Assembly (NCBI RefSeq): GCF_003334385.1
Contig: NZ_QOWN01000059.1
From: Escherichia coli
GTDB taxonomy: Bacteria; Pseudomonadota; Gammaproteobacteria; Enterobacterales; Enterobacteriaceae
Length of the DNA: 27,104 nucleotides
Strand: one strand, 5' to 3'
The notes beneath the pieces are model-generated. The model made no database searches, was not told the origin of the DNA, and saw only the letters and a list, made by a program, of their open reading frames with translations. The translations under genes and the position numbers were made by a program. Below, piece by piece: positions 6,191 through 6,838 of the stretch (the stretch's first letter is position 1; every line of letters starts with the position of its first letter).

Positions 6191-6227
6191 CCGAAAATTA
6201 AAAAGCCACCTATTAGAAGGTGGCCTT
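6191..6227 (-). terminator. Rho-independent terminator of the AT-rich insert gene
   Basis: On the minus strand: stem GGCCACC, loop UUCUAAUA, stem GGUGGCU, then UUUUUAAUUUU; sits about 20 nt past the stop of the 6245-6775 gene. Confidence 0.55.
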
Positions 6228-6244
6228 GTAATGAATTTTATTAA

Positions 6245-6775
6245 TTAGCGAGTCAGAAACAACGAATCTTTATACTTTTGCTGTTGTTCATTTAAATACT
6301 TAGCTGTTTCATCGCTGGCAAATGGAAATATTACCGTATTTTTAGGCATGGTAATTTCTTTTTTGTCCAGCGTCAGAGTAAACATAGGAACATACTGAGC
6401 AGAGTAACGCACCGCAGAAACGAGCTCTAGTTTAGACTCTTCAATAACACTTAAATTATCCAGGCTAACTTTCTCTTCATCTTTTTTCTTTGACGCATTT
6501 AAAGTTTTTATTACTTTATTTAATTTCTCCTGAAAATCCTCCTTAAAGTTTTCAGGATTGCCGTCGACAACAAGAATCTGTTCACCCTGATTATCTGGAA
6601 AAATAATCTTTGCACTTATCAATTTATTTTCTTTATAAACATCACCAAGTTTTATGGCTCCTCCAGATAACTGAATAATATGTTCATCTTTAAAGGAGAT
6701 GTTGCCAGAGATTATGAGAGATGAAAAAATAGCCGCTGCTCCAAGAATTACACTTGCTGTGATATAGCCTTTCAT
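6245..6775 (-). CDS. Hypothetical exported or membrane-anchored protein (moron)
   Basis: 176-aa ORF, visibly AT-rich, with a hydrophobic N-terminus (MKGYITASVILGAAAIFSSLIISG) then a Lys/Glu-rich soluble part. Flanked by its own candidate promoter and terminator, and lies between the tape measure and DNA circularization genes. Confidence 0.6.
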   Translation of the reverse strand: MKGYITASVILGAAAIFSSLIISGNISFKDEHIIQLSGGAIKLGDVYKENKLISAKIIFPDNQGEQILVVDGNPENFKEDFQEKLNKVIKTLNASKKKDEEKVSLDNLSVIEESKLELVSAVRYSAQYVPMFTLTLDKKEITMPKNTVIFPFASDETAKYLNEQQQKYKDSLFLTR

Positions 6776-6810
6776 TTTTCGCCTATTAACATTTTTCTAA
6801 ATGTGCATTA

Positions 6811-6838
6811 ATTCTATCACTCTATTTATGACTTACAA
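6811..6838 (-). promoter_or_regulatory. Candidate sigma70 promoter for the insert gene (TTGTAA-N16-TAGAAT)
   Basis: Minus-strand hexamers at 6833-6838 (-35) and 6811-6816 (-10), about 35 nt upstream of the ATG at 6775. Confidence 0.3.

What the first reader, a model, noticed from the sequence alone, without database searches (positions are those of the whole stretch)
6191..6838. AT-rich moron with its own promoter and terminator inserted between tape measure and DNA circularization genes
The tail module of Mu-like phages is normally uninterrupted here. The 176-aa product has a signal-peptide or membrane-anchor N-terminus and a Lys/Glu-rich soluble domain with no motif I recognise. The candidate TTGTAA-N16-TAGAAT promoter and a clean intrinsic terminator point to autonomous expression, for example in the lysogen. 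Candidate roles are superinfection exclusion, a periplasmic immunity function or a host-interaction factor.
Basis: partly seen in the sequence, partly recalled or inferred. Interest (0 to 1): 0.6.

Follow-up and report, generated by a model that had tools for sequence, protein, structure and literature searches.

The report
Membrane-anchored moron in a prophage tail hotspot
An AT-rich extra gene for a small membrane-anchored protein of unknown function sits in a slot between two tail genes of an E. coli prophage; that slot holds at least five different, mostly envelope-directed, cargo genes in sister phages, so this is an ordinary accessory "moron", probably for excluding other phages, though that is untested.

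Summary
ORF 6245-6775 (- strand, 176 aa) lies in a 665-bp island of 34% GC, against about 52-56% in the flanking genes. It sits between the tape measure gene (6867-8699) and the Mu N-like DNA-circulation gene (4855-6183) of an SfV-like E. coli prophage.

Isolated phages SfV, SfI and SfII have about 45 nt at this junction and no gene. Of 5426 complete E. coli genomes, 1097 carry this tail junction. The slot is empty in roughly half of those sampled, or holds one of at least five unrelated AT-rich cargo genes; this one is the commonest (179 genomes). So it is an accessory gene in a cargo hotspot, not a tail part.

The terminator is a backbone feature, present at empty sites too. The promoter is plausible but unproven.

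The protein has a conserved N-terminal membrane helix plus an alpha/beta domain. That domain is modelled at pLDDT 92, with no Pfam, PADLOC or PDB relative. Homologues at 30-53% identity also sit directly upstream of the N-like gene; one lies in the baseplate cluster of a different myovirus tail module. More distant ones lie in integrative elements and beside a CI-like repressor with defence genes.

Best guess, inferred only: an inner-membrane superinfection-exclusion factor.

The parts
6202..6866 (.). AT-rich cargo cassette (moron) between the tape measure stop codon and the T-run/RBS of the N-like gene.
   Evidence: GC is 0.343 against a window mean of 0.509. The cassette is missing from SfV and SfII, where the junction is about 45 nt.
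6245..6775 (-). ORF X, 176 aa: an uncharacterised membrane-anchored protein (phrog_5485; RefSeq WP_000679479.1, 'hypothetical protein').
   Evidence: The AF2 model built with the family alignment has pLDDT 92.2.
6707..6769 (-). Codons for residues 3-23: the N-terminal transmembrane helix or signal anchor.
   Evidence: Hydropathy is and the modelled helix. Small residues are conserved at fixed helix positions across 50 family members.
6811..6838 (-). Sigma-70-like promoter candidate TTGTAA-16-TAGAAT with an extended -10 TG.
   Evidence: It is a consensus match only and not above shuffle expectation. This 91-nt upstream region is 96.7-100% identical in 68 IMG/VR copies.
6782..6784 (-). AGG Shine-Dalgarno, 6 nt before the ATG of X.
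   Evidence: Read from the sequence.
6192..6227 (-). Intrinsic terminator (10-bp stem, 6-nt loop, T-run) directly upstream of the RBS and ATG of the N-like gene.
   Evidence: -17 kcal/mol. An equivalent hairpin sits at the same position at empty sites and with the other same-strand cargos.
6867..8699 (-). Tail tape measure protein gene (backbone). Its last ~230 nt (6867-7100) form an allele linked to X.
   Evidence: Identity to SfV falls to 78-90% over 6867-7100 and is 94-100% further in. A shared C-terminal signature is seen in X-bearing loci.
4855..6183 (-). Mu N-like DNA circulation / baseplate protein gene (backbone).
   Evidence: It carries Pfam DNA_circ_N in homologous loci.

Best explanation
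The 665-bp AT-rich cassette is a moron occupying a cargo hotspot between the tape measure gene and the Mu N-like baseplate gene of SfV-like prophages.

Its 176-aa product is predicted to be a bitopic inner-membrane protein: a short cytoplasmic N-terminus (Met-Lys), one uncleaved transmembrane helix (residues about 3-23), and an alpha/beta domain of about 150 aa in the periplasm.

The mechanism I think most likely is superinfection exclusion at the envelope. In this reading the protein is made from its own promoter in the lysogen, and by read-through of the late tail operon during lytic growth. From the inner membrane, its periplasmic domain and conserved membrane helix would interfere with the membrane-penetration or DNA-delivery step of incoming phages, probably contractile-tailed ones. 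This is how HK97 gp15, P22 SieA and T4 Imm/Sp are described to act.

Shown here: moron and hotspot status, dispensability for virion structure, and a conserved family with a confidently modelled fold.
Inferred: topology, expression in the lysogen, and the exclusion function.

I put moron/hotspot cargo at about 0.9 and the exclusion mechanism at about 0.35-0.4. The confidence value given is for the mechanism.
For: **Hotspot and moron status**
- SfV, SfI, SfII and vB_EcoM-689R6 lack the cassette at 95-98% backbone identity.
- 1097 of 5426 E. coli genomes carry the junction. In an evenly spaced sample, 29 rows show the empty span, and the others show inserts of +383 to +758 bp.
- The alternative cargos and their genome counts are as follows.
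  - X: 179 genomes.
  - A signal-peptide protein: 85.
  - A membrane-anchored OB-fold protein on the opposite strand: 72. It matches phrog_8545 'superinfection exclusion Sie-like' at E 1.5e-49.
  - A lipoprotein: 55.
  - A PH-domain protein: 28.
- All five are 31-42% GC. X is unrelated to the three other cargos tested by hhalign.
- Four of the five cargos are envelope-targeted.
- All 62 IMG/VR loci with both flanks readable and adjacent show the order TMP-X-N. X DNA is 99.85% identical across them, against 97.1% and 95.3% for the flanks.

**Family**
- 63 cluster representatives out of 1.84 billion, nearly all 170-180 aa.
- Conserved motifs are G-x-V-x-L-G-x-V-Y-x-E and Y-x-S-E-x-x-P-x-F-x-L.
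- AF2 gives pLDDT 92.2 and pTM 0.77.
- Many members lack a usable signal-peptidase site after the helix, for example YAA-P and FSA-K/D. Small residues recur at fixed helix positions. Both favour a retained anchor.
- The only viral structural analogue is annotated as a lipoprotein, which fits a periplasm-facing domain.

**Context of relatives**
- Directly upstream of the N-like gene, at 53, 38, 33 and 30% identity.
- As an AT-rich island inside a different myovirus baseplate cluster.
- Directly downstream of a CI-like S24 repressor and next to HNH plus LmuB-like defence genes.
- In integrase or resolvase islets.

**Precedent**
- The HK97 gp15 moron lies in the tail operon next to the tape measure gene, inserts into the inner membrane and blocks genome entry (PMC3594210).
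- P22 SieA and T4 Imm/Sp are described as blocking DNA injection, SieA as an inner-membrane protein (PMC11436027).
Against: - There is no functional or expression data of any kind.
- The promoter is only a consensus match and is not conserved in homologous loci.
- DNA of 34% GC in E. coli is a typical H-NS target and could be silent in the lysogen (general knowledge, not tested).
- The 'Sie-like' label on the neighbouring cargo family is a database annotation, not a tested function.
- Recurrent placement in tail modules could simply reflect where insertions are tolerated.
Confidence: 0.38

Rival explanations
1. X is a lysogenic-conversion or host-fitness factor unrelated to phage entry. Examples would be a periplasm-facing protein that protects against envelope-acting toxins (colicins, T6SS or CDI effectors, i.e. 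an orphan immunity protein), or one that alters envelope stress tolerance or host interaction, in the manner of lambda Bor and Lom.
For: The architecture is the same as in the main explanation: a membrane anchor plus a periplasmic domain. It is a moron in a hotspot whose other cargos are mostly envelope proteins. Family members also occur outside prophage tail modules, in integrative islets and ordinary chromosomal neighbourhoods. Morons with such roles are documented (PMC3594210).
Against: None of the 11 neighbourhoods examined places a family member next to a recognisable toxin or effector gene. Six of those 11 lie inside contractile-tail gene clusters, which an immunity or host-interaction gene has no obvious reason to prefer. 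One alternative cargo at the same slot belongs to a family annotated as Sie-like.
Confidence: 0.25
2. X is a non-essential helper of the phage's own lytic cycle. It would be expressed with the late tail operon and act in the envelope, for example by preventing progeny or secondary phages from injecting into already infected or lysing cells, or by modulating lysis. Its benefit would then accrue in the lytic cycle rather than in the lysogen.
For: X has the same orientation as the late tail genes and sits between them, so any antiterminated late transcript will include it. Homologues hold the same position, directly upstream of the N-like gene, at 30-53% identity, and their divergence tracks that of the backbone. 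X is linked to a particular tape-measure C-terminal allele. The promoter evidence is weak.
Against: Isolated, viable phages of the same group lack it or carry unrelated genes instead. Distant relatives sit in non-phage islets and next to a CI-like repressor, a position typical of lysogen-expressed genes. One cargo at the same slot is transcribed antisense to the late operon, so cargo there need not be late genes.
Confidence: 0.15
3. X is a conserved structural or assembly component of the Mu-like tail or baseplate.
For: It lies between the tape measure and baseplate genes. Homologues occupy the same place in several diverged tail modules, and one lies in another myovirus baseplate cluster.
Against: It is absent from SfV, SfI, SfII, vB_EcoM-689R6 and SKA5, which are isolated phages, and from roughly half of the E. 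coli prophages sampled with this module. The slot holds unrelated genes in others. X has a membrane anchor, AT-rich composition and relatives outside phages.
Confidence: 0.03

Closest known systems
HK97 gp15 moron (YebO-like superinfection exclusion protein; Cumby et al. 2012, as described in PMC3594210)
   Same: It is a moron inside a tail operon next to the tape measure gene. Its composition differs from the neighbouring genes, and those neighbours are adjacent in sister phages. The product inserts into the inner membrane. In HK97 it blocks genome entry in a way that depends on the incoming phage's tail.
   Different: No sequence relationship was found: no Pfam hit of any kind. From my own recollection, not checked here, gp15 is far smaller and lacks a large periplasmic domain. 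HK97 is a siphovirus, and its slot lies between the chaperone and tape measure genes rather than between the tape measure and N-like genes. The function of X is untested.
P22 SieA and T4 Imm/Sp (proteins that block DNA injection; SieA is an inner-membrane protein; PMC11436027, PMC10883804)
   Same: They are small phage-encoded proteins that stop incoming DNA at the periplasm or inner membrane. P22 SieA is described as an inner-membrane protein.
   Different: X is unrelated in sequence, and the viral structure library gave no match to them. From my own recollection, not checked here, those genes lie in early or immunity regions rather than in a tail module.
Lipoprotein exclusion factors (phi80/N15 Cor, T5 Llp, TP-J34 Ltp)
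   Same: They are envelope-anchored, periplasm- or surface-facing small proteins encoded by temperate phages. The only viral structural analogue of X is annotated as a lipoprotein (Pseudomonas phage ventosus; E 1e-6, TM 0.56/0.66). One alternative cargo at this slot is a lipoprotein.
   Different: X has no Cys and no lipobox, so it would be anchored by a helix. No homology to these factors was found.
Fixed cargo hotspots of temperate phages (P2/P4 antiviral hotspots, Rousset et al. 2022, seen only as a reference in PMC10884400; lambda bor/lom region)
   Same: It is a defined intergenic slot between conserved phage genes that holds interchangeable, horizontally exchanged accessory genes.
   Different: The phage group differs (SfV-like, Mu-type tail). 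The slot lies in the middle of the tail operon. The cargos found so far are single small genes, mostly envelope proteins, none of which matched a PADLOC model. I found no description of this slot in the literature searches I ran.
phrog_5485 (PHROGs v4, unknown function)
   Same: Full-length match, residues 1-176 to profile positions 1-176, E 3.8e-108.
   Different: The family carries no functional annotation, so membership says nothing about mechanism.

Membership tests
Moron (Juhala/Hendrix sense, as summarised in PMC3594210) | The extra gene lies between two genes that are adjacent in related phages. | tested here: met
   SfV, SfI and SfII have about 45 nt between the tape measure and N-like genes. 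The window has 683 nt there, including X.
Moron (Juhala/Hendrix sense) | Nucleotide composition differs from the surrounding genes. | tested here: met
   GC is 0.34 against 0.52-0.56 in the flanks, and GC3 is 0.30 against 0.57-0.61. The same contrast holds for homologues in L007, L011, L012 and L026.
Moron (Juhala/Hendrix sense) | Has its own promoter. | tested here: inconclusive
   TTGTAA-16-TAGAAT with TG is a 9/12 match. The count of such matches is not above shuffles, and no equivalent site is called in L011 or L012, with only a weak one in L007.
Moron (Juhala/Hendrix sense) | Has its own terminator. | tested here: inconclusive
   A strong hairpin plus T-run follows X. A hairpin in the same place, just before the N-like gene's RBS, also exists at empty junctions and with the other same-strand cargos. 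The stem sequences do differ between cargo types.
Moron (Juhala/Hendrix sense) | Expressed from the repressed prophage. | not testable with these tools
   This needs RNA-seq or 5'-RACE on a lysogen.
Superinfection exclusion proteins acting at the inner membrane (HK97 gp15, P22 SieA, T4 Imm) | Homology to a characterised member. | tested here: not met
   No hit in Pfam, NCBIfam or PADLOC. No match to a known Sie protein in BFVD or PDB.
Superinfection exclusion proteins acting at the inner membrane | Membrane location with a periplasm-facing part. | tested here: inconclusive
   A hydrophobic helix at residues 3-23 is conserved family-wide, with Lys at the N-terminus. Topology and cleavage were not measured, and no signal-peptide predictor was available.
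Superinfection exclusion proteins acting at the inner membrane | Blocks infection after adsorption. | not testable with these tools
   This needs plating-efficiency, adsorption and DNA-entry assays.
Known anti-phage defence systems (PADLOC-DB 2.0) | Match to a defence-protein model. | tested here: not met
   No families matched at E <= 1.
Mu-like tail structural or assembly proteins | Present in all functional phages sharing the module. | tested here: not met
   Absent from SfV, SfI, SfII, vB_EcoM-689R6 and SKA5. The junction is empty in 29 rows of the 60-row spread sample.
phrog_5485 | Full-length profile match. | tested here: met
   E 3.8e-108, residues 1-176 to profile 1-176.

The most novel reading that the evidence does not exclude
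The X family (phrog_5485 and its gammaproteobacterial relatives) would be a new class of helix-anchored periplasmic exclusion factor, with a fold not seen in solved structures. It would travel preferentially inside contractile-tail and baseplate gene clusters and block the membrane-penetration step carried out by the tape measure and baseplate hub of incoming myoviruses. The tape-measure/N junction of SfV-like phages would then be a previously undescribed hotspot dedicated to envelope-level anti-phage cargo.
Probability: 0.3. Interest if true: 0.6.

Novelty: new member of a known kind. Interest (0 to 1): 0.4.

Why it matters
SfV-like prophages are common: the junction is present in about 20% of complete E. 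coli genomes. If the reading is right, the slot between the tape measure and N-like genes is a compact, easily scanned hotspot. It already holds five unrelated small genes, four of them envelope-directed, and none has a tested function.

That gives a ready-made set of candidates for envelope-level phage exclusion or lysogenic conversion. Such factors bear on phage-therapy host range and on prophage-mediated competition in the gut.

X is the commonest cargo. It has a confidently modelled fold with no solved relative, so it is a reasonable first target. Taken alone, though, a moron of unknown function in a tail operon is a familiar kind of object.

Tried and rejected
**Searches that found nothing**
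- Pfam on X and on all 50 family members; NCBIfam; PADLOC.
- AFDB50: only uncharacterised family members.
- tblastn of X against 50,697 deposited phage genomes: no match. X is therefore known only from prophages and IMG/VR contigs.
- Rfam on 5800-7200: nothing at gathering score. The sub-threshold leader-peptide matches merely reflect the terminator hairpin.
- Four literature searches, including the RefSeq accession: no description of this gene or this hotspot.

**Leads rejected**
- The single-sequence AF2 model was useless (pLDDT 37). Only the model built with the alignment is used.
- The phmmer hit to a 3842-aa repeat protein (P0046) is a short repeated match to the hydrophobic N-terminus. 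I rejected it as spurious.
- hhalign of the family profile against three other cargos (SKA5-type, lipoprotein, OB-fold) showed no relationship.
- An i-spanin or lysis role was considered and dropped. The lysis cassette lies elsewhere in the equivalent annotated prophage (holin and glycoside hydrolase family 19 genes in L004; window position about 19.9-21.2 kb by synteny, not annotated directly), and X is dispensable in sister phages.

**Technical problems**
- The first search for homologous proteins attempt failed because the queue was full.
- My first context script picked up the wrong record and gave empty BLAST results. It was redone correctly.
- Row 1 of alignments A3 and A4, and therefore the AF2 model, lack Met1 because I trimmed the wrong end. 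Model residue i is protein residue i+1.

Full report
**1. What is there**

On the - strand, ORF 6245-6775 encodes 176 aa. It lies between the tape measure gene (6867-8699) and the Mu N-like DNA-circulation gene (4855-6183).

The region is sharply AT-rich.
- ORF GC is 0.343 and GC3 0.30. The neighbours are 0.52-0.56 and 0.57-0.61.
- The 665-bp cassette 6202-6866 is one of four low-GC islands in the window.

Upstream is a sigma-70-like site, TTGTAA-16-TAGAAT, with an extended -10 TG (6838..6811), and an AGG Shine-Dalgarno. Downstream is a 10-bp hairpin with a T-run (6227..6202), which folds at -17 kcal/mol. The count of such consensus matches is not above shuffles, so they are plausible rather than demonstrated signals. 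Rfam finds no RNA family here.

**2. Whose genome**

The flanks are 95-98% identical to Shigella/E. coli phages SfV, SfI, SfII, vB_EcoM-689R6 and SKA5. An identical cassette sits in an intact-looking prophage next to the icd/e14 region of E. coli AMSHJX01.

In SfV and SfII the tape measure and N-like genes are about 45 nt apart, with only a hairpin between them. That hairpin is annotated as a terminator in SfII. Alignment places the left boundary at the terminator stem, just after the conserved RBS/T-run of the N-like gene. The right boundary falls in the last codons of the tape measure gene.

**3. It is a hotspot, not a single insertion**

Phage SKA5 carries a different 170-aa gene at exactly this place. 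That gene has a classical signal peptide and belongs to phrog_8976.

I searched the empty SfV junction against 5426 complete E. coli genomes. 1097 genomes matched. In an evenly spaced sample of 60 rows, 29 had the empty span and the others had inserts of +383 to +758 bp.

| Cargo at the slot | Features | E. coli genomes |
|---|---|---|
| X (this gene) | Membrane helix plus alpha/beta domain, 176 aa | 179 |
| SKA5-type | Signal peptide, 170 aa | 85 |
| OB-fold protein | Membrane-anchored, 148 aa, opposite strand; phrog_8545 'superinfection exclusion Sie-like', E 1.5e-49 | 72 |
| Lipoprotein | 225 aa, lipobox LLGGC | 55 |
| PH-domain protein | 125 aa | 28 |

- All five are 31-42% GC.
- X is unrelated by profile comparison to the three other cargos tested.
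- None of the five matches a PADLOC model.

In IMG/VR, 74 loci encode X. All 62 with both flanks readable and adjacent have the order tape measure-X-N. The rest are mostly cut by contig ends. One carries an IS200-type transposase inserted right after the hairpin, one has only a partial tape-measure alignment, and three are the 53% homologues.

X DNA is 99.85% identical across carriers. The adjacent 600 nt of the tape measure and N-like genes are 97.1% and 95.3% identical. So the cassette has spread recently among diverged backbones.

The last ~75 codons of the tape measure gene travel with X as a distinct allele.

**4. Terminator and promoter**

Every variant keeps a hairpin between the tape measure and N-like genes.
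- With same-strand cargos it sits directly before the N-like gene's RBS.
- It sits in the same place at empty junctions.
- With the opposite-strand OB-fold cargo it becomes a convergent hairpin between the two stop codons.

The terminator is therefore a feature of the backbone position, although the stem sequence differs with the cargo. It cannot be used as evidence that X is an autonomous unit.

The promoter-like site is found for the E. coli cassette. Only a weak one is found in L007, and none in L011 or L012. Because X points the same way as the late tail genes, late transcripts that pass the hairpin will include it whatever the promoter does.

**5. The protein**

X matches phrog_5485 over its full length but nothing in Pfam, NCBIfam or PADLOC. 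An exhaustive HMMER scan of 1.84 billion representatives found only 63 relatives, nearly all 170-180 aa. The closest named homologues, in Leclercia and Lelliottia, are all 'hypothetical'.

The 50-sequence alignment shows these features (protein numbering is alignment numbering +1).
- A hydrophobic N-terminal helix with small residues conserved at fixed positions.
- The motif G39-x-V/I-x-L43-G44-x-V-Y47-x-E49.
- The motif Y124-x-S/A-E/Q-x-x-P130-x-F-x-L134.

With this alignment AF2 gives pLDDT 92.2 and pTM 0.77. In model numbering the elements are helix 2-22, four strands at 32-71, helix 73-92, two long strands at 113-142, and helix 148-170.

Fold comparison results:
- The PDB sequence profile gives nothing.
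- AFDB50 returns only uncharacterised relatives, in Enterobacterales, Acinetobacter, Pseudomonas, Aeromonas, Vibrio, Photobacterium and Shewanella.
- BFVD returns one analogue, annotated as a lipoprotein, from Pseudomonas phage ventosus.

X has no Cys. The hydrophobic stretch is about 20 residues long. Many members have no acceptable signal-peptidase site after it. I therefore infer an uncleaved signal anchor with the alpha/beta domain in the periplasm. This is inference: no signal-peptide predictor was available.

**6. Where relatives live**

| Relative | Identity to X | Neighbourhood |
|---|---|---|
| P0002 (L007) | 53% | Between tape measure and DNA_circ_N genes of a Mu-like tail module |
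| P0005 (L011) | 38% | Between tape measure and DNA_circ_N genes |
| P0015 (L012) | 33% | After the tape measure gene; two further small ORFs separate it from DNA_circ_N |
| P0024 (L025) | 30% | Directly upstream of DNA_circ_N; no tape measure gene upstream on this short contig |
| P0029 (L026) | 30% | AT-rich island (GC 0.33-0.35 vs 0.45-0.54) between hub-like genes and Baseplate_J in a different myovirus module |
| P0058 (L018) | 29% | Directly downstream of a CI-like S24 repressor, upstream of HNH plus LmuB-like (PDC-M68/Lamassu-like) genes |
| P0044 (L016, L017) | 27% | Resolvase and DUF6538-protein islet |
| P0043 (L027) | 27% | Integrase, SRAP and DUF2971 island |
| P0047 (L029) | 32% (partial match) | Among small unannotated ORFs |

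P0040 and P0035 lie on contigs too short to be informative.

Divergence of X in L007, L011 and L012 tracks that of the backbone. X is 52/38/33% identical by BLASTP, the sheath protein 86/68/66%, and the N-like protein 72/56/47%. X stays AT-rich in each of these loci.

No neighbourhood contains an adjacent toxin gene.

**7. Interpretation**

X is not a tail component. Viable sister phages lack it or carry something else.

It is a real, selected gene: it belongs to a conserved family with a confident fold. It fits the moron definition (PMC3594210) on the two criteria that can be tested by sequence.

For mechanism I commit to envelope-level superinfection exclusion, at a probability of about 0.35-0.4. 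The grounds are:
- the predicted inner-membrane/periplasmic architecture;
- the envelope theme of the slot's other cargos, one in a family annotated as Sie-like;
- a relative in a repressor-adjacent defence neighbourhood;
- recurrence inside contractile-tail clusters;
- the precedents of HK97 gp15, a moron next to the tape measure gene, and of SieA and Imm/Sp.

Rivals are a host-fitness or immunity factor (0.25), a non-essential lytic-cycle helper (0.15) and a structural protein (0.03). The remainder is unassigned. All functional statements are inference; nothing here measures expression, localisation or phenotype.

**8. Verdict**

The 'moron' reading is supported, with corrections: the slot is a hotspot, the terminator belongs to the backbone, and the promoter is unproven.

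It is a new, uncharacterised member of a familiar class of phage accessory genes. It is of moderate interest, mainly as the commonest cargo of a compact hotspot for which I found no published description.

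Noticed in passing
window 21476-24315 (+): A 592-aa OLD/Gabija/PtuA-like AAA ATPase (PADLOC HEC-04 E 1e-34; ATPase-Toprim_I-B E 2e-27) is followed by a 344-aa C5 cytosine DNA methyltransferase (TIGR00675 E 5e-40). Both lie on the strand opposite the late genes, in the lowest-GC island of the window (minimum 0.31). This looks like a second, defence-like cargo island in the same prophage.
   Followed up: partly
window 19208-19921 (-): Another AT-rich island (GC about 0.36) encodes a 237-aa protein with hydrophobic N-terminal segments. 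It matches phrog_9267 (unknown function) and has no PADLOC or NCBIfam hit. It lies next to the HNH endonuclease gene (18779-19129). The equivalent position in strain AMSHJX01 holds a different gene (DUF6173), so this may be a second variable slot.
   Followed up: partly
window 1-2149: Two convergent sets of a tail-fibre C-terminal segment plus a tail-fibre assembly gene: 6-494 and 494-1096 on the + strand, 1502-2149 and 1068-1499 on the - strand. This layout resembles a Mu G-segment or e14 Pin-type invertible host-range segment. A recombinase pseudogene lies nearby in the AMSHJX01 prophage.
   Followed up: partly
window 6192-6227; L002 ~1490-1535; L007 6543-6562; L011 6669-6688; L012 7373-7394; L019 ~1005-1025; L021 ~1005-1025: An intrinsic-terminator-like hairpin with a T-run sits immediately before the RBS of the N-like gene. 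It is present in every lineage examined, including empty junctions, in the middle of the late tail operon. It might set the ratio of tube, sheath and tape-measure expression to baseplate expression, or require antitermination.
   Followed up: partly
window 6867-7100: The last ~75 codons of the tape measure gene are a distinct allele in X-bearing prophages...KATAPKVDGEIKVSFINMPPGMRVTETRSSGIDINHDVGYTRFW against the SfV-type ...KASAP...FVNSPPGMRVMETRSSGFDVSHDVGYTRFGR. The allele shares several of these residues with the 52%-homologue locus L007. The linkage may be mere hitch-hiking or may be functional.
   Followed up: partly
L078 3580-4250: One IMG/VR copy has an IS200/IS605-type tnpA (169-aa ORF) inserted directly after the terminator hairpin of X and before the N-like gene.
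   Followed up: yes
L012 6637-7330: In a locus carrying a 33%-identity homologue, two further small ORFs follow X before the N-like gene. One is a 119-aa Cys-rich protein (phrog_4293). The other is an 83-aa protein with a C-terminal hydrophobic helix (phrog_6136, with weak 'hemolysin' and CorA-like matches). The slot can therefore hold several cargos at once.
   Followed up: partly
L018 184-5219: A distant family member (29% identity) lies between a CI-like S24 repressor gene and a cluster of an HNH nuclease, a small MC6/MC7-domain protein and an LmuB-like SMC ATPase. The cluster matches PADLOC PDC-M68 and Lamassu-like models.
   Followed up: partly
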